From a virus (Duplodnaviria; Heunggongvirae; Uroviricota; Caudoviricetes): a stretch of 64,000 bases of DNA. How positions within the stretch are numbered: the stretch's first letter is position 1; each line of letters starts with the position of its first letter. Location of the stretch: the IMG/VR virus record IMGVR_UViG_2974628062_000001, positions 44,794 to 108,793 of that record; one strand, written 5' to 3'. The notes beneath the pieces were generated by a model. It saw only the letters and a program-made list of their open reading frames with translations, did no database searches and was not told where the DNA came from. The translations under genes were made by a program, and so were the position numbers. This document shows positions 30,827 through 41,983 of the stretch, in pieces.

Positions 30827-31006
30827 ATGAAAGTATCAAATCTCTACATCTACGGTTCCAGTGAGTTCCTTCGTAGACTAGAAGAAGAGTACGTATTCCT
30901 GGGAAGGTCTGTTAGACTTGAAGAGGACCGACTTATCGTCTTCGCACTTCCGCGAAGGAAGAAGAACACCAAGAAGTCTCCCAAGGGCAAGTCACGCAGG
31001 CGTTGA
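30827..31006 (+). CDS. hypothetical small basic protein
   Basis: 59 aa; RBS AGGAAG; basic C-tail. Confidence 0.35.
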   Translation: MKVSNLYIYGSSEFLRRLEEEYVFLGRSVRLEEDRLIVFALPRRKKNTKKSPKGKSRRR

Positions 31007-31585
31007 CAAAGCCGGACGGGGTTTGATAGACTTCTATTGGTCAGCACGAAAGAGTTGACCAAGCTTGTACTGAACAACCATACGGCGTAAGCCCGGCAAG
31101 GCGTCACGGCCAAACCGGCAGACCAAAATTTCCTGGCCAAGGGTGGTTGACTCGGTATTGACAGTTCGCACGTGACTCTGATACTGTCAAGTTGTAGCAC
31201 ACGGACAAGGCTTAGGCGGATGAAACAAGCCGGTGGGATGCGAGTGGTGATGCTACAATAAACGGGAAGTAAGCCATCTATACCTACGACACTGCTTCCT
31301 AAGTTGTCACCCATAAGGTCATAAACCGTGAGGGAAACCACAGCGGATAATCTTTCCCAGCTAGGTATAGACGTGGGGACCTGAGGGTGATAAGCTTCTA
31401 CAGCAGGCAGGTCGAACGCCTTAGACAAGTATTCAGGGCACTGAACAAGCACGTAACACCCATTCGACAGGGTACAAAGTTACCGCCTGATTGAATACAT
31501 GCTGTAGGCTGTGAGGGTAACCGGAAATGCTCTCACAAGCTTCCTTTGTAAGCTTCAAATATTGCCAATCAAACAAAGGATTACC

Positions 31586-32497
31586 ATGCTGTACATTGTT
31601 CTCGCAAGTATTCTGGTTATTGCAATTCTCATCCTTGGGGCTATGTTCCTCTTCGGAAAGAATCCTGACAATGACTATGGTGTCCCAGTCAAGTCCATTG
31701 GTCTTGTTGGCGGCATCGTTGCAACGGTCGCGCTTCTTCTTCTGACTTTCTTCATGTCGCTTACCACTGTTGGTGCGCGTTCTGTTGGAATTCAGACGGC
31801 ATTCGGTCGTTACCAGAACACTCTCGATAACGGTCTTCAGTTGACCGCTCCGTGGTCCTCTACTGAGGAGTTCTCTACCCAGGTTCAGTACCTTGACCTT
31901 GACTCTACTGATGGTGGAGATGACGCTGTAAGCGTTACTTTCAAGGGCGGTGGCGGTGGTACCGTTTCGCTCACCCCTCGTTGGTCTATCAATGAGGACA
32001 AGGCGGAAGACCTGTGGAAGAAGTACAAGACGTTTGACAAGGTTCGTAATCAGCTCGTGAATTCTTCTGCGAAGGATTCTGTTCGTGTGGTAGTGTCCAA
32101 GTACACTCCGAATGACGCTCGTGATGGTGAGAATCTTCGTCCGATTGCTGACGAGATTCAGAGGGACCTTGCTCAGTCTCTTGCTGATGACGGAGTGAAC
32201 ATTGACTCTGTTAGCATCAAGAAGATTACGCTTGACGCTCGTTCTCAGGCTTCTCTTGATAAGATTGTTGAGGCTAACAACAACGTCGAGCGTGCAAAGG
32301 CTGAGCGTGAGCGTGCCAAGATTGACGCTGAGACTGCTAAGATTCGTGAGCAGTCGGGTCAGCTTTCCGAGAAGGCTGCACAGCGTTTCTGCCTTGAGAT
32401 GATGAACAACTGGGATGTAAAGAAGAACGGTCCTCTTCAGGCCGGTTTTGTTTGCCCCGGTACTAATTCTTCGGGCTACGTGACTACTAACAAGTAA
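31586..32497 (+). CDS. SPFH/band-7 (prohibitin/HflK-like) membrane protein
   Basis: N-terminal TM then TTVGARSVGIQTAFGRYQNTLDNGLQLTAPW band-7 pattern; start at internal ATG 31586. Confidence 0.6.
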   Translation: MLYIVLASILVIAILILGAMFLFGKNPDNDYGVPVKSIGLVGGIVATVALLLLTFFMSLTTVGARSVGIQTAFGRYQNTLDNGLQLTAPWSSTEEFSTQVQYLDLDSTDGGDDAVSVTFKGGGGGTVSLTPRWSINEDKAEDLWKKYKTFDKVRNQLVNSSAKDSVRVVVSKYTPNDARDGENLRPIADEIQRDLAQSLADDGVNIDSVSIKKITLDARSQASLDKIVEANNNVERAKAERERAKIDAETAKIREQSGQLSEKAAQRFCLEMMNNWDVKKNGPLQAGFVCPGTNSSGYVTTNK

Positions 32498-32504
32498 GTC
32501 ACAG

Positions 32505-32527
32505 CGGGGGTAAAACCCCGCAAGCTT
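32505..32527 (+). repeat. GC hairpin + AAGCTT intergenic motif
   Basis: cggggg-taaaa-ccccg, C, AAGCTT. Confidence 0.6.
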
Positions 32528-32550
32528 ACCAAATTCAAGCTATAGGAGAT

Positions 32551-32925
32551 ATGATGGCTACTGCCAAGGAACGTGGACACAAGGACTGGGGATTTGGCGG
32601 GGTTGTTAAGCGAGACTTCAAGGCTGACAAGTCCGATGGAGAATACGGAAGTCCTCGTGATTACGGAAAGCGCTGGTACTCCAACACTAAGCGACACTCA
32701 CCTAAGCGTAAGAAGGACACTAAGCGCTGGTGCAAGGGAATTGAGGGTCGTGAGCACATTTGGGCTCTTTACAAGAAGTATGACTTTGGAAACTGGTGGG
32801 AATACCGTTGCGATAACTGCCGTAAGGAGCTTTGGGGAAACCCCAAGCACGGTTTCGTAAAGAAGATTTCTTACCGCTCCAATGACGAATACGACATTAT
32901 TCCTGTGTCTGAGTTGAAGTCTTAG
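32551..32925 (+). CDS. hypothetical Cys/His-rich protein
   Basis: RBS AGGAG; CKGIEGREH..CDNC. Confidence 0.45.
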   Translation: MMATAKERGHKDWGFGGVVKRDFKADKSDGEYGSPRDYGKRWYSNTKRHSPKRKKDTKRWCKGIEGREHIWALYKKYDFGNWWEYRCDNCRKELWGNPKHGFVKKISYRSNDEYDIIPVSELKS

Positions 32926-32968
32926 TCAACTAGTTGGACACACAATCTCTCTGGCCGTATAATGGAGA

Positions 32969-33412
32969 ATGAATCCATCAAGTTGGGAGGAAATTATGAG
33001 CGATACATTCCTAGAACAAATGGGATTTAAGTTCATTGCCGACCTTTTGACGGAAATCCGAAATGGCCAGATGAGATTGGAGGAAACCATGGCAGACCTA
33101 CAGACAGAAGTTGCAGAACTTCGTGATGCAGTTTCAGGCGTGTCAGCACGTGTTGACGCACTCGTTGGACCACTTACGGATGCCGTACGAGAGGCACAGG
33201 ACGCACTTGCAGCAGAGCGTGAGGCAGCAGCAAATCTAGCAGCAGCGGAAGATGCTGAGGACGTTGAGCAGAACCGTCAGCTAGAGGAGGCTCGTGCAGC
33301 TACAGATGCAGCCCTAGCAAATGCACAGCAGGCAGCAGATGAAATCAGTGCTGAGACTGACCGACTAAATGCAGTCGCACAGCCAGCAAATCCTGAGACC
33401 CCTCAGGCGTAA
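32969..33412 (+). CDS. hypothetical coiled-coil protein
   Basis: Ala/Glu-rich heptad-like sequence. Confidence 0.45.
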   Translation: MNPSSWEEIMSDTFLEQMGFKFIADLLTEIRNGQMRLEETMADLQTEVAELRDAVSGVSARVDALVGPLTDAVREAQDALAAEREAAANLAAAEDAEDVEQNRQLEEARAATDAALANAQQAADEISAETDRLNAVAQPANPETPQA

Positions 33413-33437
33413 TTGACGATATAACTAAATATTCAGA

Positions 33438-33468
33438 GCCCCGCCTTTTTGGCGGGGTTTCTGCTTTA
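33438..33468 (+). terminator. canonical intrinsic terminator
   Basis: ccccgcc-ttttt-ggcgggg then TTTCTGCTTT. Confidence 0.7.
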
Positions 33469-33477
33469 GGGGATTCA

Positions 33478-33735
33478 ATGAAGAGCAGAAAGAAATTCCT
33501 CTGTCTTGACTGTGGAGTAGATACAGGTAAGATAGGAGAACACTACATGTTGATTGATGAGGTCTGGTCCTTGACAGGCTTGGGTCCTATCGGTATGCTT
33601 TGTGTTGAACACGTTGAAGAGCGTATTGGCAGGGAGCTTGTCAGCGCTGACTTCAATGATTCGTATCTCAACAATGCCCGAACGGGCATTATCAGCCAGA
33701 GACTTGCAGAACGTATGGGTCTTCTGGTAAGATAG
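33478..33735 (+). CDS. hypothetical zinc-ribbon protein
   Basis: CLDCG...C..H. Confidence 0.4.
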   Translation: MKSRKKFLCLDCGVDTGKIGEHYMLIDEVWSLTGLGPIGMLCVEHVEERIGRELVSADFNDSYLNNARTGIISQRLAERMGLLVR

Positions 33736-33742
33736 TTCTATC

Positions 33743-33754
33743 GCCCTTCGGGGC
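33743..33754 (+). other. GC tetraloop hairpin 3 nt upstream of tRNA-Leu
   Basis: gccc-ttcg-gggc. Confidence 0.5.
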
Positions 33755-33757
33755 AAT

Positions 33758-33842
33758 GCACATGTGGCGGAATGGTATACGCGCTACGTTGAGGTCGTAG
33801 TCTCTGAAATACGGGATGCAGGTTCGACTCCTGTCATGTGCA
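33758..33842 (+). tRNA. tRNA-Leu(GAG), long variable arm
   Basis: acceptor gcacatg/catgtgc perfect; anticodon stem ctacg/cgtag, loop ttgaggt. Confidence 0.8.
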
Positions 33843-34032
33843 CATGTCTCTTAGAGTAGGTCAACAAATTGTCGTTGCTCAATTCGTCAGGAAGGGAATT
33901 GAATACTCTGGAAGAAAGGGCTTTGTAGAAATCGCACAAAGCCGGGGCAGAATCACAGTCCTATTGTATAAGACGGATACAATGCCAGAATGTACGATTG
34001 ATATGCACGAACGAAACGTAAGGACTGTATAG
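33838..34032 (+). CDS. hypothetical protein (start overlaps tRNA 3' end)
   Basis: ORF track. Confidence 0.3.
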   Translation: MHMSLRVGQQIVVAQFVRKGIEYSGRKGFVEIAQSRGRITVLLYKTDTMPECTIDMHERNVRTV

Positions 34033-34310
34033 TGAGCTACATCGTTTATCGTGACGTTTTCGGTATGGAGCAGGATGACCCCCTGCTTGACAAGGTTGAT
34101 AAGCTCGATGATAAGATTATCGAGAAGTATCAACAGGGTTGGGTTGATGATGAATTCGGGGCGGGTATGAGTCTGCAAGAGGCAGAGGAATACATTAAGT
34201 CTCAAGAATACAATTGTTGGCCTCCCCCAGAGCCTCGCAGTTACGATACACTCCTTATCCTTGTACAGATGATTAAGAACGGGGAAATCGATATCAATGG
34301 GTATCTTTAA
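34032..34310 (+). CDS. hypothetical protein
   Basis: ORF track. Confidence 0.4.
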   Translation: MSYIVYRDVFGMEQDDPLLDKVDKLDDKIIEKYQQGWVDDEFGAGMSLQEAEEYIKSQEYNCWPPPEPRSYDTLLILVQMIKNGEIDINGYL

Positions 34311-34467
34311 CCGAGACGGATTCAAGAACGGTCAAAAGGTATACATTCCAAAGATGGGGCAGTATGGCGTTGTAAGGATGAAGCGTGGTGGCCTCATTAA
34401 GGTAAAGCCATACAAGAGTGACAATGAAATTTGGGTTCATCCACACGAAATTGAGGATGGACGCTAA
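34297..34467 (+). CDS. hypothetical small protein
   Basis: 56 aa ORF below track threshold. Confidence 0.3.
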   Translation: MGIFNRDGFKNGQKVYIPKMGQYGVVRMKRGGLIKVKPYKSDNEIWVHPHEIEDGR

Positions 34468-34479
34468 GCCCGAAAGGGC
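34468..34479 (+). other. GC tetraloop hairpin 2 nt upstream of tRNA-Ser
   Basis: gccc-gaaa-gggc. Confidence 0.5.
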
Positions 34480-34481
34480 AT

Positions 34482-34570
34482 GGAAGAGCAAGCCAATTGG
34501 AGATGGCACCCGACTGCTAATCGGACGAGTCCAGAAATGGGCCTTGCGAGTTCGACTCTCGTCTCTTCCG
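34482..34570 (+). tRNA. tRNA-Ser(GCU), long variable arm
   Basis: acceptor ggaagag/ctcttcc perfect; anticodon stem ccga/tcgg, loop ctgctaa. Confidence 0.75.
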
Positions 34571-34602
34571 CTTATGGTTCGAATCTATGATATAATTGAA
34601 CC

Positions 34603-34968
34603 ATGCCATATAAAGATGTTGAAAAGCAGCGCGCGGCTCAAAGAGCCTACTACGAAAAGAACAAAGAGCGTGTGAAGCAAGTAGCTAGAGATAGACGCTC
34701 ACATGTGAGAAAGTATGTGCAGGAATATAAGCAGTCACGTGGTTGCATCGATTGTGGAATCATGTATCCATATTGGGTGCTAGAGTTTGACCATTGTCGT
34801 GGTGAGAAGATTGCTCACGTCACAACTATGATTACAACACACTCGTTTGATGAAGTTAAGAATGAAATTGAAAAATGTGATGTTGTCTGTGCAAATTGTC
34901 ATAAAGATAGAACATACCAGAGATTGGTAACATCTGGTGCTTCTGTGTTGGATGTTGTTGACATCTAA
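34603..34968 (+). CDS. HNH endonuclease
   Basis: CIDCG..EFDHCRGEK..CANCH. Confidence 0.7.
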   Translation: MPYKDVEKQRAAQRAYYEKNKERVKQVARDRRSHVRKYVQEYKQSRGCIDCGIMYPYWVLEFDHCRGEKIAHVTTMITTHSFDEVKNEIEKCDVVCANCHKDRTYQRLVTSGASVLDVVDI

Positions 34969-35011
34969 TGTCAAGCTGCTACCCTATGTAGAACCGTGTA
35001 GGGGCTATGCA

Positions 35012-35365
35012 ATGTACCACGGGGTTGGTATCCCGAACGGTTCAAGCTATAATGATGCTATGGAGATTAATAAGCATCGTTACGAGGGGAGCTTTGTCAG
35101 GCGTCACAGTCTGTCTCTGGCTCTCCTTTTTGTTTTCTTGCTCCAGTCAGTCATCGTATGGTACAGTGGCTACTCAGATTGGAAGCAAGACCAGATTACA
35201 CACCATCAAGATGTTGCAATTTGGCCGGGTTTCGTGATTTACTACCTGTACCAGATGTCAGTCAGCATTGTAGCAGATACATATGGAGCATTGCTTCTGG
35301 TACTATTTGCTAAATGGTTTTACGAAAAGGGAAGTCCAGAGTCAAACGACGAGGAGAAGAAATGA
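35012..35365 (+). CDS. hypothetical membrane protein
   Basis: two hydrophobic segments; 35007 frame is an alternative. Confidence 0.4.
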   Translation: MYHGVGIPNGSSYNDAMEINKHRYEGSFVRRHSLSLALLFVFLLQSVIVWYSGYSDWKQDQITHHQDVAIWPGFVIYYLYQMSVSIVADTYGALLLVLFAKWFYEKGSPESNDEEKK

Positions 35366-36411
35366 CTCACGTTTCCGCAATTTTCTCAGTTGAGGAGTTG
35401 CAGAAGGCAATTGAAGACGGTTGGGTTCGAGTTCAGACGAATGAGGACAACACTCTTTCGATTTACAATTATACGGAAGCCGCGCAATACCGTCGTTACT
35501 GGAATGATGTAACGCTGAATTGTCGGGGTTTGATTCTCGACAATGACATGAACATTGTTGCCCGTCCGTGGAAGAAGTTCTTCAATTATGGAGAGCGCCC
35601 ATTGAACATTTCCACAGATGACCCGGTTGAGGTAACGGACAAGAAGGATGGCTCTTTGGGCATTCTTTATCGTCACCCGATGACTGGTGATTGGGAGGTT
35701 GCGACTCGTGGGTCTTTCCTTTCTGAGCAGGCTATTCACGCAACTGCACTCTTCAATGACCGATACAGCCACATTGCGATTCCAACTGAGGGATTGACTT
35801 GTCTCTTTGAGATTGTTTACCCTGAGAACCGCATTGTTCTGGACTATGGTGAGATGGATGACCTTATCCTTCTTGGTTCTGTTCAGAACAAGTATGGTTG
35901 GTACTATGGTCCGAACGAGACAGCAGCCATGGTGAACTGGACTGGTCCTGTCACTGAGGTGTTCGAGTACCGAACCATGAACGAGGCATTCGCAGACTAC
36001 CGTCCAAATGCAGAGGGTCTGGTAATTCGGGCGGGTAGTGAGATGCTGAAGTTGAAGCAGGCAGATTACGTAGCTTTGCACAAGCTCGTCACGGGTCTGA
36101 ATGAGCGTGCAGTATGGGAGCGCTTGCGTGACGGGGAGACTCGTGATAGCATCTGTGCATCGCTTCCCGACGAGTTCCACGGATTCGTTGACAAGGTTGC
36201 TGATGAGTTGGAGCAGAAGTTCAAGGACATCTACTTGACAGCTCACCAGAACTACTGTACTGTTCTCAACAAGATGAAGGCAGGATACAGCCGCAAGGAC
36301 TTTGCTCTTGAGGCAATCAAGTATCCTAACCCTTCGCTTCTGTTCAATTTCCTTGACAACAAGTCGAATCGTCAGTCAGTATGGGATATGATTCGACCGA
36401 AGGGTGAGTAA
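35362..36411 (+). CDS. rnlA: RNA ligase 1-like (T4 RnlA-like) tRNA repair ligase
   Basis: RBS GAGGAG; motif I KKDGSL matches T4 Rnl1 KEDGSL; directly upstream of Pnkp. Confidence 0.65.
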   Translation: MTHVSAIFSVEELQKAIEDGWVRVQTNEDNTLSIYNYTEAAQYRRYWNDVTLNCRGLILDNDMNIVARPWKKFFNYGERPLNISTDDPVEVTDKKDGSLGILYRHPMTGDWEVATRGSFLSEQAIHATALFNDRYSHIAIPTEGLTCLFEIVYPENRIVLDYGEMDDLILLGSVQNKYGWYYGPNETAAMVNWTGPVTEVFEYRTMNEAFADYRPNAEGLVIRAGSEMLKLKQADYVALHKLVTGLNERAVWERLRDGETRDSICASLPDEFHGFVDKVADELEQKFKDIYLTAHQNYCTVLNKMKAGYSRKDFALEAIKYPNPSLLFNFLDNKSNRQSVWDMIRPKGE

Positions 36412-36641
36412 TGGACTGGCAAGTCAAGGTCTTCCTTATCTGTATCGCTATCAGTGTTGTTTGCAAGATTGGAACGATTCTGCTAAGTTCTACAGAGACA
36501 GAAGAGCCTGAGGTTGTGGTTCCAATGAATCGCCAACAGAGGCGACACCCTAATGGCAAGGTTCCTGCTCAGCGATTCCAGCGCGTAAGTGCTAAGGGTC
36601 GTCAGAAGCAGGGCAACAATCGAGCCATCAAGGGCTGGTAG
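36411..36641 (+). CDS. hypothetical small membrane/basic protein
   Basis: ORF track. Confidence 0.35.
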   Translation: MDWQVKVFLICIAISVVCKIGTILLSSTETEEPEVVVPMNRQQRRHPNGKVPAQRFQRVSAKGRQKQGNNRAIKGW

Positions 36642-36644
36642 TAT

Positions 36645-36678
36645 AGCTGGGGAGGCGGAAACAAATCCCCAGCAAGCT
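36645..36678 (+). repeat. GC hairpin + AAGCTT intergenic motif
   Basis: gctgggga...tccccagc then AAGCTT. Confidence 0.6.
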
Positions 36679-36697
36679 TGTCTAACAAAGGAATAAA

Positions 36698-36946
36698 ATG
36701 AATTACGAAGAGATTATCGACGGCTACAATGACCTTCGGGAAAAGTGTCTGGAGTTGGCAAAGGCTGACAGTGATAATCTGATGCTTGAGGGTGCATGGT
36801 TCAAGAGCGTTATCATTGAATCGGATGTTACTCTTGATTATTCAGAGAGTGGTATTCATGGTCATGGACACGCCTATACTTGTCAAACCATGAGTCTTGA
36901 GTACTTTAGCTTCATTATCCCGTTCGAGCTTCTTGAGGAGAAGTAA
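36698..36946 (+). CDS. hypothetical protein
   Basis: RBS AAGGAA. Confidence 0.4.
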   Translation: MNYEEIIDGYNDLREKCLELAKADSDNLMLEGAWFKSVIIESDVTLDYSESGIHGHGHAYTCQTMSLEYFSFIIPFELLEEK

Positions 36947-37837
36947 ATGCTAGAGCTGGTTATTAATCGCGGAATTCCTGGCAGTGGAAAGTCTACTTTC
37001 GCTGAGGCATGGGTTAATTCCGCAAATGGGCGGGTTCGTAGTAATCGAGATGACATTCGTCTTTCTGGTTATGGTGTTGAATTCGGTCCGCCTATCGATG
37101 AAAAGATTGTTACTGAGATTCAGCACGCAGGAATTCGAGCCGCACTTGCGGCGGGTGTTTCTGTTATTGTTGATGACTGCAACATTGAGCAGAAGTACAT
37201 CAATGTCCTTGCTCGGATTGGTTATGAGTACGGAGCAGAGGTTTCCATCAATCTGATTGATGTTCCTGTCGCTGTTGCTCTTGAGCGGAATCGTATTCGA
37301 AAGGACCACGGCGGACGATTTGTTCCGGAGAATGTAATTGTTTCTATGCATTCTCGACTTCAGGGCCTAAAGAATGTCAGTCTTCCTGAGCGAATTGTGT
37401 TCCAGAAGTACAATGGATATCACAAGAACCCTGAAGCCGTTATGGTTGATATCGATGGGACTCTTGCTAAGATGACTAAGCGCGGTCCATTCGACTGGCT
37501 TCGTGTTGGTGAGGATGAGCCTATCGAGCGGGTTATTGAGATTGTCAACCTGTACTGGAGTGCTGGCAAGAAGATTGTGGTAATGTCTGGTCGTGACAGT
37601 GTTTGCCGAGAGCAGACGATTGAATGGCTTGACAGGAACGAGGTTCCGTGGGATGCTCTGTTCATGAGGCCAGAGAAGGACATGCGAAAGGACAGCATCG
37701 TCAAGCATGAGCTGTTCTGGGCACATGTTGCTCCCTGGTTCAATGTTCAGCTAGTTCTTGATGACCGCAAGCAGGTTGTTGACATGTGGCGTGAAATTGG
37801 CCTGACCTGCTTCCAAGTTGCCCCTGGAGATTTCTGA
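36947..37837 (+). CDS. pnkp: polynucleotide 5'-kinase/3'-phosphatase (T4 Pnk/PseT-like)
   Basis: P-loop GIPGSGKSTFAEAW as in T4 GCPGSGKSTWAREF; phosphatase DIDGTLA; C-terminus LDDRKQVVDMWREIGLTCFQVAPGDF nearly identical to T4 [26 protein letters not shown]. Confidence 0.85.
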   Translation: MLELVINRGIPGSGKSTFAEAWVNSANGRVRSNRDDIRLSGYGVEFGPPIDEKIVTEIQHAGIRAALAAGVSVIVDDCNIEQKYINVLARIGYEYGAEVSINLIDVPVAVALERNRIRKDHGGRFVPENVIVSMHSRLQGLKNVSLPERIVFQKYNGYHKNPEAVMVDIDGTLAKMTKRGPFDWLRVGEDEPIERVIEIVNLYWSAGKKIVVMSGRDSVCREQTIEWLDRNEVPWDALFMRPEKDMRKDSIVKHELFWAHVAPWFNVQLVLDDRKQVVDMWREIGLTCFQVAPGDF

Positions 37838-38043
37838 TGGAAATTCTTGGCGCTCTGTTTTTGACCATCATTGCTGTAATTGCTGTATTGTGGTGTATCG
37901 GAATGCCTTGGCTTGCGCTAGGGTTTGGTGGACCATCAGTTGGTAATTGGGCATGGATGATTGGTGGACTTGCGGTTGCCTCAGTCATTGTGCTAGGATG
38001 GTGGCACTTCGTAGGCACAAACATTCACTTCAGCTTCGGCTAA
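37837..38043 (+). CDS. hypothetical membrane protein
   Basis: hydrophobic 68 aa. Confidence 0.4.
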   Translation: MEILGALFLTIIAVIAVLWCIGMPWLALGFGGPSVGNWAWMIGGLAVASVIVLGWWHFVGTNIHFSFG

Positions 38044-38049
38044 AGTGGG

Positions 38050-38073
38050 GGCGGAGGAAACTCCGCCAAGCTT
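38050..38073 (+). repeat. GC hairpin + AAGCTT intergenic motif
   Basis: ggcggag-gaaa-ctccgcc then AAGCTT. Confidence 0.6.
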
Positions 38074-38087
38074 AGAAAGGAGACAAA

Positions 38088-38363
38088 GTGTCTGATGTAG
38101 AAATCAGCCTCTCAAAGGGGCGTGCAATTCTTGTCAAGAACATTCTGCTTAATTACCCGTCTTCATCTGTACTAGAGTTGAGGCGAATCGGTGAAATTGT
38201 AGAACAGCTTGAAACAGAAATTGCGCGGGTGTGGGACGAGAACCGAGACCAAGATGAACTGTGTAAGTGTTCACACCCTTATCACAGGCATTTTGACTCG
38301 TATGAAGACATGCACCCAATCGGCTGTAAGTATTGTGAGTGTGATACGTTTGAACGCGTTTGA
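38088..38363 (+). CDS. hypothetical protein
   Basis: RBS AAGGAG; GTG start. Confidence 0.45.
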   Translation: MSDVEISLSKGRAILVKNILLNYPSSSVLELRRIGEIVEQLETEIARVWDENRDQDELCKCSHPYHRHFDSYEDMHPIGCKYCECDTFERV

Positions 38364-38817
38364 GTTCTTTGAAGAGCAGTGGAAAGAGCCAGTATGGGAT
38401 GCGCTCAGTGAGACCGAACAGCTACTTCTTGTGCACGAAGCATATGCGGAGAAGAAGTTTCGAGAGTGTGATGGCCACGCCTGGTCACTTGTGGTAGACT
38501 GTGGTCAAGCCAGCATCCAGTGCTTCAACTGCGAGGGTAGTTTCGAATATATCGCTGGTCCTGATTATCAGGAAATGATTAACTGCGAAGTAGACATTTA
38601 CTACCCACGCATTGAGATTGAAATTTCGGGGTCGTATGACAACCCCGAGCGGGAACCTGTGCTAGAGTTCTACACAGAGCATCCCGAAGATTTGTCAGGC
38701 TGTGCCTACTTCCAAGGTAAGGGAACATGTTCCTATGGTTGTTGGGAAGAGCCTAGGTGTCATACTGATGAGCCTGAGGGTGGTTGGCCATCTGAACGAT
38801 TTAAGGATTCACCTTGA
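38341..38817 (+). CDS. hypothetical Cys-rich protein (start uncertain)
   Basis: upstream half of track ORF 38209 overlaps previous gene. Confidence 0.35.
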   Translation: MIRLNAFEFFEEQWKEPVWDALSETEQLLLVHEAYAEKKFRECDGHAWSLVVDCGQASIQCFNCEGSFEYIAGPDYQEMINCEVDIYYPRIEIEISGSYDNPEREPVLEFYTEHPEDLSGCAYFQGKGTCSYGCWEEPRCHTDEPEGGWPSERFKDSP

Positions 38818-39026
38818 AGCAATATCCAAGTCCAGACAATTTCATGGACATCGTAGTAACTCAGCATGAAGATGACTTCACAAAGTGGCGGGTTGTCGGT
38901 GTTAGTGTAGACTGGGATGCAGTCAGACAGCTAGACATCGAGACAGACTTTGCCAACAAGGCACTTGCAGAAGCCTTCGTCAGAGGGTATACTGATAAGT
39001 ACGTCAGAAGGAACTTCTTCGATTGA
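38814..39026 (+). CDS. hypothetical protein
   Basis: ORF track. Confidence 0.4.
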   Translation: MKQYPSPDNFMDIVVTQHEDDFTKWRVVGVSVDWDAVRQLDIETDFANKALAEAFVRGYTDKYVRRNFFD

Positions 39027-39032
39027 GATATT

Positions 39033-39052
39033 GCGGCTTCGGCCGCAAGCTT
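39033..39052 (+). repeat. GC hairpin + AAGCTT motif fused to promoter -35
   Basis: gcggc-ttcg-gccgc then AAGCTTGACA. Confidence 0.6.
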
Positions 39053-39080
39053 GACAGACCAACACAAAGTCTGTTATGAT
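39051..39080 (+). promoter_or_regulatory. sigma-70-like promoter for tRNA-Leu(UAG)
   Basis: TTGACA-18-TATGAT, 13 nt before tRNA 5' end. Confidence 0.55.
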
Positions 39081-39092
39081 TGATAACATCAA

Positions 39093-39173
39093 GCCCGTGT
39101 GGTGGAATTAGGCAGACACGCTAGTCTTAGGAACTAGTCTTTCGGGGTGCAGGTTCGAGTCCTGTCACGGGTA
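39093..39173 (+). tRNA. tRNA-Leu(UAG), long variable arm
   Basis: acceptor gcccgtg/cacgggt; anticodon stem ctagt/actag, loop cttagga. Confidence 0.75.
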
Positions 39174-39202
39174 CTTTATCGTTAAATTACAAAGGGGATG
39201 TA

Positions 39203-39382
39203 ATGAGCAACTTCAACTATGGTGACGACGTTGTTGATGTCAGTGGCGCTGAGGGCAGGGTCGTTGATGAGACTCGTGGTGGCGGAAAGGTTACCGTCCG
39301 AATCACCAAGGAAGGTCCCAATTCGGTTTTCCGAAAGGGACAGCGTGTAGACATTCTTGAGCGACAGCTCAGGAAGAAGTAG
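39203..39382 (+). CDS. hypothetical small protein
   Basis: 59 aa; RBS AAGGGGA. Confidence 0.4.
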   Translation: MSNFNYGDDVVDVSGAEGRVVDETRGGGKVTVRITKEGPNSVFRKGQRVDILERQLRKK

Positions 39383-39390
39383 TAAAATCT

Positions 39391-39410
39391 GGAGCTTCGG
39401 CTCCAAGCTT
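39391..39410 (+). repeat. GC hairpin + AAGCTT intergenic motif
   Basis: ggagc-ttcg-gctcc then AAGCTT then AGGAGG. Confidence 0.6.
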
Positions 39411-39421
39411 AGGAGGTCATA

Positions 39422-39613
39422 ATGGCTAAGAGAGCAAGAATGAATTCTCCTGTTAAGATTTCAAAACCAAATAATGCCATCAACAGGAGATACAAGGATG
39501 AGCTAGGAATCATCTTTGATATCAAGACTGAAGAAAGACGAACTTATTACATGGTTCGTCTGAATGGAGGGCATACTATCTCTGTTGATAGAGATGAAAT
39601 TACAGTGCTATGA
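39422..39613 (+). CDS. hypothetical protein
   Basis: RBS AGGAGG. Confidence 0.45.
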   Translation: MAKRARMNSPVKISKPNNAINRRYKDELGIIFDIKTEERRTYYMVRLNGGHTISVDRDEITVL

Positions 39614-39798
39614 AACTTCCACATTACATCAGTCGAAAGTCATGGTCACAAGGTGACAGAGTAGTTGTAGCAGTTGGACAGCACAAGGGCAAGCATGGTA
39701 CAGTGAAGCTATTCGCTACAAAGCACAACTACCTTGTTCTTCTCGATGGAGAAGAAAGGCCAAGACAGTTCCATAAGGGTGCATTGGACCCTGAATAG
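39610..39798 (+). CDS. hypothetical protein
   Basis: ORF track. Confidence 0.4.
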   Translation: MKLPHYISRKSWSQGDRVVVAVGQHKGKHGTVKLFATKHNYLVLLDGEERPRQFHKGALDPE

Positions 39799-39811
39799 GA
39801 GATAGAAACAA

Positions 39812-39970
39812 ATGGCTAATGAAAGCGGAATTCCGAAGCCTGCAAAGTACGCAGTTAAGTGTGACAAGTCCCCTTCTGGGAAGCACACTCCTACTACGCG
39901 TGAAACCAAGGTTGATGGCAAGCACATCAAGTACAAGGTTTGTACGAATTGCAACGGAACGCTTAAGTAA
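39812..39970 (+). CDS. hypothetical zinc-ribbon peptide
   Basis: 52 aa; VKCDK..CTNC. Confidence 0.35.
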   Translation: MANESGIPKPAKYAVKCDKSPSGKHTPTTRETKVDGKHIKYKVCTNCNGTLK

Positions 39971-39977
39971 AACCAAT

Positions 39978-39989
39978 GCCCTTCGGGGC
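39978..39989 (+). other. GC tetraloop hairpin 3 nt upstream of tRNA-Val
   Basis: gccc-ttcg-gggc. Confidence 0.5.
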
Positions 39990-39992
39990 TAT

Positions 39993-40064
39993 GCGGGGTT
40001 AGCTCAGTGGGAGAGCGTCTGCCTTACAAGCAGAGGGCCGGGGGTTCGAATCCCTCACTCCGTA
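39993..40064 (+). tRNA. tRNA-Val(UAC)
   Basis: acceptor gcggggt/actccgt; anticodon stem tctgc/gcaga, loop cttacaa. Confidence 0.75.
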
Positions 40065-40232
40065 CAATGGGAGAAATACCGAAAGGCTGGCACCTTTCGG
40101 CGGGTTTAGCAATGCTGTGCCAGCAGTAAGTTGTTAACACCGGGAATGGATTATAACCCCATTCCGTAATCCCGTAAGCTAAATCCTCAGTGCAGATACG
40201 TAAACAGTGGGGTTGAAAGAAGTCTGCACAAT

Positions 40233-40312
40233 GCCCGCGTAGGCGAATGGTATAGCCGCTGGTCTCAAACACCAGGCCGAAAGGCGTGTCGGTTCGACTC
40301 CGACCGTGGGTA
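40233..40312 (+). tRNA. tRNA-Leu(CAA), long variable arm
   Basis: acceptor gcccgcg/cgtgggt; anticodon stem ctggt/accag, loop ctcaaac; T-arm gtcggTTCGACTccgac. Confidence 0.75.
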
Positions 40313-40416
40313 CATGTCTCTTGGAAGACCTCCGGGTGAAATCCCGAATCCAAGTGGTGGCACTAAGCCACGACAGCCTAAACCGCCAACCGGTCCAGGC
40401 CGATAAAAGGAGAAAA

Positions 40417-40602
40417 ATGATGCAGTTTACGAAGGTTGATGAAGACGCTTACACAGTTCTTGTGAATCTTGATACGATTCGTAGGATTGGTTCTCTCAGT
40501 GGAGATGAGCGAGACGCAGTAATTGCTACGGGGTTCCGTAATGCGCATGAGCGTCTGTCACAGCCTGAGACTTCTGAAGAGTCGGTAGAGACCTCAGAGT
40601 GA
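40417..40602 (+). CDS. hypothetical protein
   Basis: RBS AAAGGAG then ATGATG. Confidence 0.4.
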   Translation: MMQFTKVDEDAYTVLVNLDTIRRIGSLSGDERDAVIATGFRNAHERLSQPETSEESVETSE

Positions 40603-40607
40603 ACAGC

Positions 40608-40631
40608 GGCCCCGGAAACGGGGCCAAGCTT
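40608..40631 (+). repeat. GC hairpin + AAGCTT intergenic motif
   Basis: ggccccg-gaaa-cggggcc then AAGCTT. Confidence 0.6.
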
Positions 40632-40649
40632 TTGAGAGAGGGTGGTAAA

Positions 40650-40868
40650 ATGGCGAAGACCAAGTGGGTGCCAGTAGGAAATAGGATGATGGACAGAGCT
40701 TATCTGAGAGATGGCAATGTCGTTCATACTGGTGAGGCTCTGCTACTTGCACTTCTGTTTCATGCTAAGGGAAAGACAAAGCGTGGAAATGATGAGCTGA
40801 AGCAAGTTTCTAAGATGCTGGATGACCCTAATCTCAACAATAAGAGGACTCCCCGCAGGAAGAAGTAA
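40650..40868 (+). CDS. hypothetical protein
   Basis: RBS GAGGGTGG. Confidence 0.45.
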   Translation: MAKTKWVPVGNRMMDRAYLRDGNVVHTGEALLLALLFHAKGKTKRGNDELKQVSKMLDDPNLNNKRTPRRKK

Positions 40869-40877
40869 TTCTTTCTT

Positions 40878-40896
40878 GGCGGGGTTTTCCCGTTTT
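40878..40896 (+). terminator. weak terminator
   Basis: ggcgggg-tttt-cccg then TTTT. Confidence 0.35.
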
Positions 40897-40905
40897 AGGA
40901 GCGTA

Positions 40906-41250
40906 ATGGCACAACTAATTATGAATAGAACAGATTCCCGTTGTGGAAACTGTAATAAGCCTGCTGACCTGTATGAGTCAGGTCACCACACCATCCTTGG
41001 CTACACAGAAAATGGTCAGCCGGGTTGCGGTGAAGAGTGGGACAGTGTAAGCTCTGATTATGTGAACATGCCAGAGCAGATGACTGAGTGGCACTTCAAC
41101 AAGACTCATCTCATCGGCTTGCCAGTGTATAGTTGGTCAAGCAAGGAACCGATTGGACTATTTGGTGGCCAGACAAGAGAGAATGCGACGTTGCCCACAG
41201 TGTCAGAAGAAGACGATGACACCATTTATGAGGCAGAAGATTTGCGGTAA
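40906..41250 (+). CDS. hypothetical Cys-containing protein
   Basis: RBS TAGGAG. Confidence 0.45.
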   Translation: MAQLIMNRTDSRCGNCNKPADLYESGHHTILGYTENGQPGCGEEWDSVSSDYVNMPEQMTEWHFNKTHLIGLPVYSWSSKEPIGLFGGQTRENATLPTVSEEDDDTIYEAEDLR

Positions 41251-41282
41251 CTGTTCCGCAGAAGAAATTATTAGGAGTATTC

Positions 41283-41513
41283 GTGGCGGGTCTGCCGAAG
41301 AAGTTGTACTATGTCCTAGTGAAGCCAGGGGGAACACCCCTGAAGTACCGTCAGAAGGGCGGAGGGACATACACGAACGAGAAGTTTGCGAAGAGTCAGT
41401 ATGAGAGCTTGAAGACTCACGGTTCTCGTGTAGAATTGTACAGTACCGAACTTGAGTGGAAGCTAGAAGAGACTTCTACCAACCCTATGGAAGGAATGCC
41501 AGGACTATGGTAA
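41283..41513 (+). CDS. hypothetical protein (GTG start)
   Basis: RBS AGGAG 6 nt upstream of GTG. Confidence 0.4.
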   Translation: MAGLPKKLYYVLVKPGGTPLKYRQKGGGTYTNEKFAKSQYESLKTHGSRVELYSTELEWKLEETSTNPMEGMPGLW

Positions 41514-41983
41514 CTTACGTCAAGGGTGATGCGACCAATCCTCAGGGTGATGGTCCAAAGATTATCGCTCACGTCTGTAATGATGAAGGCGGATGGGGAG
41601 CAGGGTTTGTTCTGGCAGTTGATAAGCTGTCTCCGCGCCCGAAGAATTTTTACAAGAATGAGTATGCATTCTACATGGATGCCGGTTATGCATTCATGCC
41701 TCTTGGCGTGATTGACGTTGTTCCTGTTGGTGGCGACACCTATGTGTGTAATATGATTGCTCAGCATCGAACGATTCGTAATCAGCCCCGTCCGCTTTGT
41801 TACAAGTCTCTTGAGATTTGCCTAACCAAGTTGGCTGAGTATGCGGTTGCAGAGGGTGCTACAATTCATATGCCTCGCATCGGTTGCGGTCTTGCAGGTG
41901 GCGACTGGAATGTGGTAGAGTCGATTATCAATCGTACCCTCACGCTTCGTGATGTTGACGTGACAGTGTACGACCTTCCGTAA
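41507..41983 (+). CDS. macro domain protein (ADP-ribose binding/hydrolase-like)
   Basis: IAHVCNDEGGWGAGFVLAV macro-fold glycine motif. Confidence 0.55.
   Translation: MVTYVKGDATNPQGDGPKIIAHVCNDEGGWGAGFVLAVDKLSPRPKNFYKNEYAFYMDAGYAFMPLGVIDVVPVGGDTYVCNMIAQHRTIRNQPRPLCYKSLEICLTKLAEYAVAEGATIHMPRIGCGLAGGDWNVVESIINRTLTLRDVDVTVYDLP

What the first reader, a model, noticed from the sequence alone, without database searches (positions are those of the whole stretch)
35362..37837. T4-like tRNA repair pair (Rnl1-like ligase + Pnkp) in an actinophage with a giant tRNA island
36947-37837 encodes a kinase-phosphatase with a P-loop (GIPGSGKSTF) and DIDGTLA. Its last ~25 residues are almost identical to T4 Pnk (..DDRxQVVxMWRxIGxxCxQVAxGDF). 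The gene immediately upstream has ligase motif I KKDGSL, like T4 Rnl1 KEDGSL. In T4 this pair heals and seals tRNA-Lys cut by the PrrC anticodon nuclease. An Rnl2-like ligase at 56347-57006 (KVDGTN) adds a second sealing activity. Together with the tRNA array, the RNase P candidate and the Ro60/Y RNA genes, the phage seems heavily invested in keeping tRNAs intact. That predicts a host anticodon-nuclease defence.
Basis: partly seen in the sequence, partly recalled or inferred. Interest (0 to 1): 0.6.

Follow-up and report, generated by a model that had tools for sequence, protein, structure and literature searches.

The report
Phage RNA ligase plus end-healing kinase-phosphatase
This Streptomyces phage carries clear relatives of the two phage T4 enzymes that mend cut transfer RNAs, but both genes are already named this way in the public record and the idea is already published, so the finding is correct but ordinary.

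Summary
The window is Streptomyces phage Blueeyedbeauty (NC_048720.1, cluster BE, Stanwilliamsviridae), matched at 100% identity.

- **Ligase:** 35362-36411 encodes an Rnl1-family RNA ligase. It matches Pfam PF09511, has T4 Rnl1 as its best solved-structure and fold match, and keeps all but one of the T4 Rnl1 residues I recall as essential (K119 becomes R116).
- **Pnkp:** 36947-37837 encodes a full-length T4-type polynucleotide kinase-phosphatase. It matches T4 Pnkp at E 1.5e-46, and all kinase and phosphatase catalytic residues are kept.

- Two small ORFs lie between the two genes, so the ligase is not "immediately upstream".
- The "Rnl2-like" gene (56347-57006) is only the nucleotidyltransferase domain.
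- No RNase P RNA is detectable.
- Y-RNA-like elements are only sub-threshold.

GenBank already annotates the genes as "RNA ligase" and "polynucleotide kinase". The ligase-to-Pnk(p) order is conserved across the phage family. Published work already proposes RNA repair or a counter to tRNA degradation for such phages. The host anticodon nuclease remains an untested inference, and codon compensation (phage 47-49% GC) rivals the defence reading of the tRNA array.

Seen in passing:
- Sister genera carry a kinase-only Pnk.
- About 50 strand-specific "hairpin + AAGCTT" intergenic elements punctuate the small-gene arm of the genome.

Verdict: real, correctly read, already known; low interest.

The parts
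34952..35365 (+). gp140, a 137-aa predicted membrane protein (DUF6766). Its stop codon overlaps the ligase start codon (ATGA).
   Evidence: GenBank gene 140; PF20554 5e-11; ATGA overlap read from the sequence.
35362..36411 (+). gp141, an Rnl1-family ATP-dependent RNA ligase (349 aa). It has an adenylyltransferase domain with motif I KKDGSL (K94) and an all-helical C-terminal domain (about residues 234-349).
   Evidence: PF09511 5e-16; phrog_562 2e-77; T4 Rnl1 2c5u E 8e-19; hhalign probability 99.4% over query 42-330 and T4 41-340; AlphaFold2 pLDDT 91.8; Foldseek top hits T4 Rnl1, E 6e-18, TM 0.6; residue map. The start at 35362 is supported by homologue N-termini.
36411..36641 (+). gp142, a 76-aa ORF with a hydrophobic N-terminus and a basic C-terminus. 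Its start overlaps the ligase stop (TAATG). Function unknown.
   Evidence: No Pfam, PHROG, NCBIfam or PADLOC match. Conserved in Annadreamy.
36646..36679 (+). Intergenic element: an 8-bp GC-rich hairpin directly followed by AAGCTT. It is one of 27 such elements in the window and separates the ligase block from the Pnkp block.
   Evidence: An orthologous element with a different stem sequence is present in Gilson and Comrade.
36698..36946 (+). gp143, an 82-aa conserved small protein (phrog_20718). It abuts the Pnkp start codon (TAAATG). Function unknown.
   Evidence: phrog_20718 3e-24. Homologues sit directly upstream of the kinase gene in Gilson, Faust and Comrade. Not similar to T4 PseT.1. 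No PDB match.
36947..37837 (+). gp144, a bifunctional polynucleotide 5'-kinase / 3'-phosphatase (Pnkp, 296 aa). It has an N-terminal P-loop kinase domain (residues 1 to about 145) and a C-terminal HAD-type phosphatase domain (162-296).
   Evidence: PF25109 3e-56 and PF13671 1e-16; phrog_505 3.5e-98; T4 Pnkp 1ltq E 1.5e-46 and Capnocytophaga Pnkp1 4xrp E 1.1e-46, both full length. Catalytic residues K15, S16, D35, R38, R118 (T4 R126), D168, D170, R179, R216, D249, D272 and D273 are conserved.
37837..38043 (+). gp145, a 68-aa predicted membrane protein. Its start overlaps the Pnkp stop (TGATG).
   Evidence: A homologue directly follows the kinase-only gene in Faust.
38050..38073 (+). Intergenic element: a 7-bp GC-rich hairpin followed by AAGCTT. 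It closes the gp143-Pnkp-gp145 block.
56347..57006 (+). gp201, an Rnl2-family nucleotidyltransferase domain only (219 aa, motif I KVDGTN). It lacks the C-terminal domain of T4 Rnl2.
   Evidence: PF09414 4.8e-17; phrog_548 matches profile positions 3-231 of 341; T4 Rnl2 1s68/2hvq aligned to residues 29-230 only; TIGR02307 30 bits against a cutoff of 197. This short form occurs in 67 phage records, 40 of them Streptomyces phages.
19665..51670 (+). Context: an array of 32 tRNA genes plus one tmRNA (30518-30814), within which the ligase and Pnkp genes are embedded.
   Evidence: ARAGORN; Rfam; GenBank annotation. Three tRNA-Thr genes lie in the left arm of the genome, so all 20 amino acids are covered.

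Best explanation
The two genes encode a T4-type RNA 'heal and seal' pathway in a lytic, roughly 130-kb Streptomyces siphovirus.

Proposed mechanism:
1. An RNase that cuts by transesterification (an anticodon nuclease or similar) leaves a 2',3'-cyclic phosphate and a 5'-OH on tRNA.
2. The HAD-type domain of Pnkp (nucleophile D168 in DIDGT) removes the 3' or cyclic phosphate.
3. The P-loop domain of Pnkp (K15/S16, with D35 as general base) phosphorylates the 5'-OH.
4. The Rnl1-type ligase seals the break. It is adenylylated on K94, transfers AMP to the 5'-phosphate, and then joins the two ends.

What is shown here: family membership, domain architecture, conservation of every catalytic residue checked, and conserved gene linkage across the phage family. 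What is inferred: enzymatic activity, tRNA as the substrate, and the existence and identity of a Streptomyces nuclease that creates the breaks.
For: - **Ligase family:** PF09511, phrog_562, and T4 Rnl1 as the best sequence, profile and fold match.
- **Ligase residues:** the T4 Rnl1 residues I know to be essential map to identical residues R55, K72, F74, K94, D96, G97, E150, K230, K232 and Y236. E218-G219 align to T4 E227-G228 in the HMMER alignment.
- **Ligase architecture:** the profile alignment and the AlphaFold2 model both extend into an all-helical C-terminal domain, as in T4 Rnl1.
- **Pnkp:** full-length match to T4 Pnkp at E 1.5e-46, with all kinase and phosphatase catalytic residues identical.
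- **Gene organisation:** the genes sit in two translationally coupled blocks on one strand.
- **Conserved linkage:** the order ligase, small ORFs, Pnk(p) recurs in both subfamilies of Stanwilliamsviridae. T4 shows a similar order, rnlA then four small genes then pseT.
- **Distribution:** 133 Streptomyces phage records carry the ligase and 140 carry the Pnkp.
- **Setting:** the genes lie inside an island of 32 tRNAs plus a tmRNA, with a Ro60 homologue nearby.
- **Host substrate:** Streptomyces coelicolor cleaves essentially all tRNAs in the anticodon loop during development (PMC2241913).
Against: - There are no biochemical or genetic data for this phage.
- No host anticodon nuclease was identified. 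Papers holding the terms did not report PrrC or RloC in Streptomyces, and the S. coelicolor study found no colicin D or E5 homologues.
- The ligase scores far below NCBIfam's T4-RnlA equivalog cutoff (94 against 242 bits). Equivalence of substrate specificity is therefore not established.
- Sister genera (Gilson, Comrade, Faust) keep the ligase but have a kinase-only Pnk of 139-147 aa. For Gilson, no PNKP-type phosphatase domain is found anywhere in the genome at E <= 1e-5. A complete T4-style healing step is therefore not universally required, or is supplied by another enzyme.
- T4-type Pnkp also acts on DNA ends (my knowledge), so a DNA-repair role is not excluded.
Confidence: 0.72

Rival explanations
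1. The enzymes are real, but their natural substrates are not host-nuclease-damaged tRNAs. They would serve general RNA or DNA end repair, or processing of phage transcripts. Examples are DNA 3'-phosphate removal during replication or recombination, and repair of phage mRNA, tmRNA or Y-RNA-like RNAs.
For: - Pnkp is much more widespread than Rnl1 in actinophages: 307 Mycobacterium phage records carry Pnkp, while Mycobacterium is not among the top genera for the Rnl1 match. Pnkp therefore often works without this ligase.
- Kinase-only variants in Gilson, Faust and Comrade show that the T4-style two-step healing is dispensable in close relatives.
- The phage also encodes Ro60, Y-RNA-like modules, a tmRNA and an Rv2179c-like exoribonuclease, which suggests a broader RNA-quality-control toolkit.
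Against: - The ligase belongs to the Rnl1 family, whose characterised members (T4 Rnl1, fungal Trl1) act on tRNA anticodon-loop breaks. Those are the top fold matches.
- The ligase and Pnk(p) are linked across the whole phage family and embedded among tRNA genes.
Confidence: 0.18
2. The tRNA island and the repair genes are unrelated in purpose. The tRNAs exist for codon compensation, because a ~48% GC phage infects a far more GC-rich host. The ligase-Pnkp pair is an accessory cassette with little current selective role.
For: - Window GC is 46-51%.
- The published description of cluster BE phages gives about 50% GC, roughly 20 points below the hosts, and lists codon optimisation as one explanation for the tRNAs (PMC5764925).
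- An HNH endonuclease gene lies just upstream of the cassette, at 34603-34968, hinting at local mobility.
Against: - The cassette is conserved in position and order across both subfamilies at 47-57% protein identity, with all catalytic residues intact. That argues for sustained selection.
- The same publication also proposes a counter to tRNA degradation.
Confidence: 0.07
3. The ligase functions as a tail-fibre attachment catalyst, which is the second activity of T4 gp63 that the RefSeq product name carries.
For: RefSeq names gene 141 'RNA ligase and tail fiber protein attachment catalyst'. That name is inherited from the PHROG and T4 annotation.
Against: - Cluster BE phages are siphoviruses (PMC5764925) without T4-type long tail fibres.
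- The gene lies in the tRNA and small-gene arm of the genome, far from the tail genes at record 21-40 kb.
- The original GenBank submission says only 'RNA ligase'.
Confidence: 0.02

Closest known systems
Phage T4 RnlA (Rnl1) and PseT (Pnkp), the tRNA-Lys repair pathway that counters the PrrC anticodon nuclease
   Same: - Same two protein families, same domain architectures and same catalytic residues.
- Same strand and same order, ligase then small ORFs then Pnkp (one search compared).
- Pnkp is about 38-41% identical and the ligase about 24-33% identical to the T4 proteins.
   Different: - The host is an actinobacterium, with no known PrrC or Stp trigger.
- The ligase is below NCBIfam's T4-RnlA equivalog cutoff.
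- The small ORF abutting Pnkp (gp143) is unrelated to T4 PseT.1.
- The phage also carries tRNAs for all 20 amino acids, including both tRNA-Lys isoacceptors.
RNA ligase and polynucleotide kinase pairs already noted in other actinobacteriophages (Microbacterium cluster ED; mycobacteriophage LeBron, cluster L1)
   Same: - Papers on these phages annotate an RNA ligase and a polynucleotide kinase, and propose countering RNA-cleaving host defence or RNA repair (PMC7302621; PMC13148394).
- LeBron also has a Ro-like protein.
   Different: - Different phage clusters and hosts.
- The LeBron ligase is 425 aa, and I did not determine its family.
- No biochemical assay of these proteins is reported in the passages I read. 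In LeBron, overexpression of all three RNA-metabolism genes was toxic to M. smegmatis.
Bacterial Pnkp1-Rnl-Hen1 RNA repair system (Capnocytophaga gingivalis Pnkp1, PDB 4xrp)
   Same: Pnkp1 is as close to gp144 as T4 Pnkp is (E 1.1e-46, full length).
   Different: No Hen1 methyltransferase was seen next to the phage genes. The phage ligase is Rnl1-type.
Fungal and plant tRNA ligase Trl1, ligase domain (Rnl1 family)
   Same: It is the second-best group of fold matches (6n67 and 8rbj, E about 4e-11), and it also seals tRNA anticodon-loop breaks.
   Different: In Trl1 the kinase and cyclic phosphodiesterase are fused to the ligase, and the junction carries a 2'-phosphate. Here the healing enzyme is a separate T4-type Pnkp.

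Membership tests
Rnl1 family of ATP-dependent RNA ligases (T4 RnlA type; Pfam PF09511) | Match to the family profile above the curated threshold | tested here: met
   PF09511 scores 59.6 bits against a cutoff of 28.3, covering profile positions 1-224 of 227. phrog_562 scores 2e-77.
Rnl1 family of ATP-dependent RNA ligases (T4 RnlA type; Pfam PF09511) | Adenylyltransferase motifs with the lysine nucleophile (motif I KxDGS), plus motifs III, IV and V and the N-terminal residues essential in T4 Rnl1 (R54, K75, F77). The residue list is from my knowledge of the Shuman laboratory's mutational work. | tested here: met
   K94/D96/G97/S98 correspond to T4 K99/D101/G102/S103. Also conserved are R55, K72, F74, E150, K230, K232 and Y236. 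T4 K119 is replaced conservatively by R116. E218-G219 align to T4 E227-G228 in the HMMER alignment. These positions are invariant across 44 homologues.
Rnl1 family of ATP-dependent RNA ligases (T4 RnlA type; Pfam PF09511) | All-helical C-terminal domain appended to the adenylyltransferase domain. In T4 Rnl1 this domain confers tRNA specificity (my knowledge). | tested here: met
   The AlphaFold2 model (pLDDT 91.8) has seven helices from residue 234 to 343. hhalign extends to query residue 330 and T4 residue 340. Foldseek aligns the whole length to 2c5u, 5tt6 and 9do4 with TM about 0.6. Whether this domain binds tRNA cannot be tested here.
T4 RnlA equivalog (NCBIfam TIGR02308) | Score above the curated equivalog cutoff | tested here: not met
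   94.3 bits against a cutoff of 242.25. The protein is a divergent Rnl1-family member, not a T4 RnlA equivalog by NCBI's criterion.
T4-type bifunctional polynucleotide kinase-phosphatase (Pnkp) | N-terminal P-loop 5'-kinase domain with the catalytic residues of T4 Pnkp (K15, S16, D35, R38, R126) | tested here: met
   All are identical in the alignment: K15, S16, D35, R38 and R118. PF13671 scores 1e-16. The match to the T4 kinase domain 1ly1 is E 5.7e-17.
T4-type bifunctional polynucleotide kinase-phosphatase (Pnkp) | C-terminal PNKP-type HAD phosphatase domain with the DxDGT nucleophile motif and the acidic and basic residues of T4 Pnkp (D165, D167, R176, R213, D254, D277, D278) | tested here: met
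   D168, D170, R179, R216, D249, D272 and D273 are all identical. PF25109 HAD_PNKP scores 190 bits, covering profile positions 1-143 of 143. The match to the T4 phosphatase domain 5uj0 is E 2.2e-33.
T4-type bifunctional polynucleotide kinase-phosphatase (Pnkp) | Kinase, 3'-phosphatase and 2',3'-cyclic phosphodiesterase activity on RNA ends | not testable with these tools
   This needs a biochemical assay.
Phage anti-anticodon-nuclease tRNA repair system (T4 paradigm) | A host nuclease that cleaves tRNA during infection, and dependence of phage growth on the repair genes in hosts that carry it | not testable with these tools
   No host genome analysis was possible, because I had no seed sequence for PrrC or RloC. 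The literature gives only a global developmental tRNA cleavage in S. coelicolor by an unidentified nuclease. No report of PrrC or RloC in Streptomyces was found.
Rnl2 family nick-sealing RNA ligase (for gp201, 56347-57006) | Nucleotidyltransferase domain plus the C-terminal domain. In T4 Rnl2 that domain is needed for sealing a 3'-OH/5'-PO4 nick (my knowledge of work on Rnl2(1-249)). | tested here: not met
   The NTase motifs are present (PF09414 4.8e-17; aligned to T4 Rnl2 residues 29-230). The protein ends at 219 aa. It matches only positions 3-231 of the 341-position PHROG profile and scores 30 bits against a cutoff of 197 for TIGR02307.

The most novel reading that the evidence does not exclude
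Stanwilliamsviridae phages may run a complete programme to replace and repair the tRNA pool. Its parts would be tRNAs for all 20 amino acids, a tmRNA, Ro60 with Y-RNA-like RNAs, an Rnl1 ligase, Pnk(p) and a minimal Rnl2-like enzyme. The target would not be a PrrC-like, phage-triggered nuclease. It would be the still-unidentified activity that cleaves essentially all tRNAs in the anticodon loop during Streptomyces development. The natural kinase-only Pnk variants in Gilsonvirus and Faustvirus would then show that 3'-end healing is modular, supplied by another phosphoesterase or by the host.
Probability: 0.15. Interest if true: 0.55.

Novelty: already known. Interest (0 to 1): 0.2.

Why it matters
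If the pair does repair tRNAs, it marks Streptomyces phages of this family as targets of a tRNA-cleaving host activity. These phages could then serve as a genetic handle for finding that nuclease, which is still unidentified for the developmental tRNA cleavage reported in S. coelicolor.

However, the gene identities are already in the public annotation. The RNA-repair reading has been published for other actinophages, and the idea that the tRNA array counters tRNA degradation has been published for cluster BE. The finding adds confirmation, not discovery.

The more useful by-products are two. One is the natural kinase-only variants in sister genera, which offer a ready-made comparison for testing whether the phosphatase matters. 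The other is the abundant hairpin + AAGCTT intergenic element.

Tried and rejected
1. **Is gp143 the counterpart of T4 PseT.1?** PseT.1 is the small ORF abutting pseT. No: BLASTP gives E = 5, and the two fall in different PHROGs, 20718 and 2347.
2. **Is the HGHGH string in gp143 a metal site?** It is not conserved among homologues, and there is no PDB match.
3. **Is gp143 linked to Pnkp beyond this subfamily?** A scan of viral contigs found only two close relatives. It is absent from Birchlyn.
4. **Is there an RNase P RNA candidate?** No Rfam match at gathering score or at E <= 1 over the whole window.
5. **Do sigma-70 promoters or U-tract terminators flank the pair?** Counts are not above shuffled expectation: 11 against 8.3 +/- 2.8, and 6 against 4.0 +/- 2.0.
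6. **Do the cassette proteins match defence-system profiles?** No PADLOC match.
7. **Could gp160 (41507-41983) be the missing 3'-phosphatase?** It matches phrog_335 'phosphatase', but it is a macrodomain protein: E 1.5e-36 to 5e3b 'Macrodomain protein' and E 4e-39 to 2afc/2fg1.
8. **Could gp165, the metallophosphoesterase, be tied to an RNA-end phosphoesterase with a solved structure?** No PDB sequence match at E <= 0.01, so this remains speculation.
9. **Does the host carry a PrrC or RloC nuclease?** I had no seed sequence to scan genomes, and literature searches gave no Streptomyces example.


Full report
**Identity of the window.** Bases 35000-38100 match Streptomyces phage Blueeyedbeauty (NC_048720.1 / MH536814.1) at 100% identity over their full length. 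The phage belongs to Stanwilliamsviridae, Loccivirinae, Annadreamyvirus, and its host is S. griseus ATCC 10137. Window coordinate equals record coordinate minus 44793.
- gene 141 (window 35362-36411) as "RNA ligase"; RefSeq adds "and tail fiber protein attachment catalyst";
- gene 144 (36947-37837) as "polynucleotide kinase";
- gene 201 (56347-57006) as "RNA ligase";
- gene 103 (23257-24873) as "Ro-like RNA-binding protein".

**Check of the observation.** Both ORFs are present as described.

The 296-aa product of 36947-37837 is a full-length T4-type Pnkp:
- It matches Pfam HAD_PNKP (PF25109, E 3e-56, the whole 143-position profile) and a P-loop kinase domain (PF13671, E 1e-16).
- It matches phrog_505 "polynucleotide kinase" (E 3.5e-98) end to end.
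- Among solved structures it matches T4 Pnkp (1ltq, E 1.5e-46) and Capnocytophaga Pnkp1 (4xrp, E 1.1e-46) over the full length.

The 349-aa product of 35362-36411 is an Rnl1-family ligase:
- It matches PF09511 RNA_lig_T4_1 (59.6 bits against a cutoff of 28.3) and phrog_562 (E 2e-77).
- It matches T4 Rnl1 structures 2c5u, 9do4 and 5tt6 (E about 1e-18).

One detail is wrong. The ligase is not immediately upstream of Pnkp, because two small ORFs (36411-36641 and 36698-36946) lie between them.

**Anatomy of the ligase.**
- I mapped the T4 Rnl1 residues I know to be essential onto gp141. R55, K72, F74, K94 (the motif I nucleophile), D96, G97, S98, E150, K230, K232 and Y236 are identical, and K119 becomes R116.
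- The motif IV pair E218-G219 aligns to T4 E227-G228 in the HMMER alignment.
- These positions are invariant in an alignment of 44 homologues at 47-88% identity.
- A profile-sequence comparison with T4 Rnl1 gives 99.4% probability over query residues 42-330 and T4 residues 41-340, which reaches well into the C-terminal domain.
- An AlphaFold2 model (mean pLDDT 91.8) shows an alpha/beta N-terminal domain followed by seven helices at residues 234-343.
- Foldseek against the PDB ranks the three T4 Rnl1 entries first (E 6e-18 to 6e-16, TM about 0.6, whole-length alignment), then the fungal Trl1 ligase domains, then archaeal Rnl3, Naegleria Rnl5 and T4 Rnl2.
- The protein scores only 94 bits against NCBIfam's T4-RnlA equivalog cutoff of 242. 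It is therefore a divergent Rnl1-family member rather than a strict T4 RnlA equivalent.
- The start at 35362, rather than the in-frame ATG at 35314, is supported by the N-termini of homologues and by a GAGGAG ribosome-binding site upstream.

**Anatomy of Pnkp.** Every catalytic residue I checked is identical to T4.
- Kinase: K15, S16, T17, D35, R38, R114 and R118 correspond to T4 K15, S16, T17, D35, R38, R122 and R126.
- Phosphatase: D168, D170, T172, R179, S214, R216, D249, K253, D272 and D273 correspond to T4 D165, D167, T169, R176, S211, R213, D254, K258, D277 and D278.

**Operon structure.** Start and stop codons overlap or abut in two runs.
- First run: gp140/gp141 (ATGA) and gp141/gp142 (TAATG).
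- Second run: gp143/gp144 (TAAATG) and gp144/gp145 (TGATG).

These form two translationally coupled blocks, gp140-ligase-gp142 and gp143-Pnkp-gp145. Each block ends with a GC-rich hairpin followed by AAGCTT (36646-36679 and 38050-38073). A generic sigma-70 promoter and U-tract terminator scan found nothing above shuffled expectation.

**Relatives.**
- tblastn finds the Pnkp in 3080 phage records, 140 of them Streptomyces phages, and the ligase in 2000 records, 133 of them Streptomyces phages.
- The order ligase, small ORFs, Pnk(p) is kept in Birchlyn, which belongs to the other subfamily, Boydwoodruffvirinae. Its Pnkp is full length at 47% identity.
- The same order is kept in Gilson, Comrade and Faust.
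- T4 itself has rnlA, four small genes, then pseT on one strand.

In Gilson, Comrade and Faust the "polynucleotide kinase" is only 139-147 aa. The HAD phosphatase domain is absent, and the next gene follows directly. In Faust that gene is detectably the gp145 homologue. The Gilson genome has no other match to the phosphatase domain at E <= 1e-5. The outgroup subfamily and Annadreamyvirus both have the full-length enzyme, and the Gilson kinase is closer to Blueeyedbeauty's (58% identity) than Birchlyn's is (47%). I therefore infer loss of the domain in those lineages.

This matters for the mechanism. Either 3'-end healing is supplied by another phosphoesterase (these phages encode several metallophosphoesterases) or by the host, or the pathway does not always need it.

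- **gp201** has the Rnl2 motifs: KVDGTN, GELYG, EGVIAKP and FKLK aligned to T4 Rnl2. It stops at 219 aa and corresponds only to the nucleotidyltransferase domain. From my knowledge of T4 Rnl2(1-249), that domain alone adenylylates itself and seals pre-adenylylated nicks, but does not seal a 3'-OH/5'-PO4 nick. A "second sealing activity" is therefore uncertain. This short form is conserved in 40 Streptomyces phage records and also occurs in crAss-like and Lak phages.
- **Ro60** is confirmed: TROVE plus the Ro60 vWA domain.
- **RNase P RNA:** no Rfam match appears at gathering score or at E <= 1.
- **Y RNA:** Rfam gives only a sub-threshold YrlA match at 21163-21227 (34 bits against a gathering score of 69; E 1.2e-5 in a local search). 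Reading the sequence shows three similar modules at about 20976-21050, 21131-21262 and 21269-21412. Each starts with GGGUCGRA...GUUAUCUU, and each folds into a long bulged closing stem; the second and third enclose a T-arm-like hairpin. Y-RNA-like genes are therefore plausible but not established.

**How it most likely works.** The best-supported reading is the T4 heal-and-seal mechanism. The Pnkp phosphatase domain removes the 2',3'-cyclic or 3'-phosphate. The kinase domain phosphorylates the 5'-OH. The Rnl1-type ligase then seals the break through ligase-AMP and AppRNA intermediates. Family membership, architecture, catalytic residues and conserved linkage are shown here. Activity, tRNA as the substrate and the nuclease that makes the breaks are inferred.

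**Rival explanations.**
- The enzymes serve broader RNA or DNA end repair rather than defence-related tRNA repair.
- The tRNA island exists for codon compensation. The window is 46-51% GC, about 20 points below its hosts (PMC5764925).
- The ligase acts in tail-fibre attachment, as the RefSeq product name implies. This is very unlikely for a siphovirus, and the gene lies far from the tail genes.

**Host side.** I could not test for an anticodon nuclease in Streptomyces genomes, because I had no seed sequence for PrrC or RloC.
- Literature searches turned up no Streptomyces PrrC or RloC report.
- What is published is that S. coelicolor cleaves essentially all tRNAs in the anticodon loop in step with development, that the nuclease is unidentified, and that it has no colicin D or E5 homologues (PMC2241913).
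- That gives a concrete but untested candidate source of substrate.

**Novelty.** The gene functions are already in GenBank.
- Pairs of RNA ligase and polynucleotide kinase have been noted, with the same interpretation, in Microbacterium cluster ED phages (PMC7302621) and in mycobacteriophage LeBron, which also has a Ro-like protein (PMC13148394).
- The T4 paradigm is cited in work on phage tRNAs and anticodon nucleases (PMC10264068).

The finding is correct, and it is a good example of reading function from raw sequence. It is also already known, so I score interest at 0.2.

**Things seen in passing.** The most striking is a strand-specific intergenic element: a GC-rich hairpin, mostly with a UUCG or GAAA tetraloop, directly followed by AAGCTT.
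- AAGCTT occurs 43 times in the window, against 20.4 +/- 4.1 expected.
- 27 of the 43 sites have an abutting upstream hairpin in the + orientation, against 2 in the - orientation. The background rate is 4.6% of positions.
- After GC-rich hairpins the next hexamer is AAGCTT 21 times and CAAGCT 8 times, and no other hexamer occurs more than 3 times.
- In the whole genome there are 52 copies in + orientation and 6 in - orientation, concentrated at record 68-123 kb in the small-gene arm.
- By my reading of the contexts, about 19 of the 27 window copies are followed within about 30 nt by a ribosome-binding site and a start codon.
- Copies at orthologous positions in Gilson, Faust and Comrade have different stem sequences but keep the hairpin and the AAGCTT. 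Birchlyn and T4 lack the element.

It may be a terminator without a U-tract, an RNA processing or 3'-stabilising site, or an analogue of the start-associated sequences of cluster K mycobacteriophages (that comparison is from my knowledge). I did not resolve which.

Noticed in passing
window 36646-36679, 38050-38073, 23191-23212, 24879-24909, 56299-56326, 57013-57032 and 21 further sites; whole genome NC_048720.1, mainly 68-123 kb: A strand-specific repeated intergenic element: a GC-rich hairpin (5-11 bp stem, mostly UUCG or GAAA tetraloops) directly followed by AAGCTT. About two thirds of the window copies lie 10-30 nt before a ribosome-binding site and start codon. There are 27 copies in the window and 52 in the genome, against 6 in the opposite orientation. 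It is conserved with different stem sequences in Gilson, Faust and Comrade, and absent from Birchlyn and T4. It is not annotated in the record and has no Rfam match. Possible roles are a terminator without a U-tract, an RNA processing or stabilising site, or a start-associated sequence.
   Followed up: partly
L003 4001-4420 (Gilson gp153), L004 3857-4300 (Faust gp142), L005 3991-4416 (Comrade gp146): Sister genera keep the Rnl1 ligase and the gp143 homologue, but their 'polynucleotide kinase' is only the kinase domain (139-147 aa). The HAD 3'-phosphatase domain appears to have been lost. In Gilson there is no other PNKP-type phosphatase match in the genome.
   Followed up: partly
window about 20976-21050, 21131-21262 and 21269-21412: Three similar modules lie about 2 kb upstream of the Ro60 gene. 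Each starts with GGGUCGRA...GUUAUCUU and folds into a long bulged closing stem; the second and third enclose T-arm-like hairpins. The middle one gives a sub-threshold Rfam YrlA (Y RNA-like) match of 34 bits against a gathering score of 69. They are likely Y-RNA-like genes and are not annotated in the record.
   Followed up: partly
window 22215-22287: GenBank annotates a tRNA-His(gtg) here (gene 99). ARAGORN does not call it, and Rfam tRNA scores only 23.4 bits, below the gathering score of 29, with the D-arm missing. A normal tRNA-His(gtg) exists at 29473-29547. This may be a degenerate or tRNA-like element.
   Followed up: partly
window 56347-57006 and 57058-57732: The Rnl2-like ligase is a 219-aa nucleotidyltransferase domain without the Rnl2 C-terminal domain. 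The same short form occurs in Loccivirinae, crAss-like phages and Lak megaphages. The next gene, gp202, carries DUF7736 and DUF7701. Whether it is a partner of gp201 is unknown.
   Followed up: partly
window 41507-41983: gp160 is annotated as hypothetical and matches phrog_335 'phosphatase'. It is a macrodomain protein closely similar to solved macrodomains: 5e3b at E 1.5e-36, and 2afc and 2fg1 at E 4e-39. It is a candidate ADP-ribosyl hydrolase.
   Followed up: partly
window 26756-27361: gp110 is annotated 'RNase H'. It matches the Rv2179c-like 3'-5' exoribonuclease domain (PF16473, E 6e-12), so it is another RNA-processing enzyme inside the tRNA island.
   Followed up: no
window 48123-48197: The phage encodes a tRNA-Ile with anticodon UAU (tat). 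Bacteria usually read AUA with a lysidine-modified CAU tRNA instead (my knowledge).
   Followed up: no
window 39047-39080: In some copies of the hairpin + AAGCTT element, the motif runs into a good sigma-70-like promoter: AAGCTTGACA, 18 nt, TATGAT (11/12 matches, TG-extended). This copy lies just upstream of tRNA-Leu(tag) at 39093.
   Followed up: no
window 34603-34968: An HNH endonuclease gene (phrog_2255, E 1e-24) lies two genes upstream of the ligase. Comrade also has an HNH gene directly upstream of its ligase. This may indicate local mobility of the cassette.
   Followed up: no
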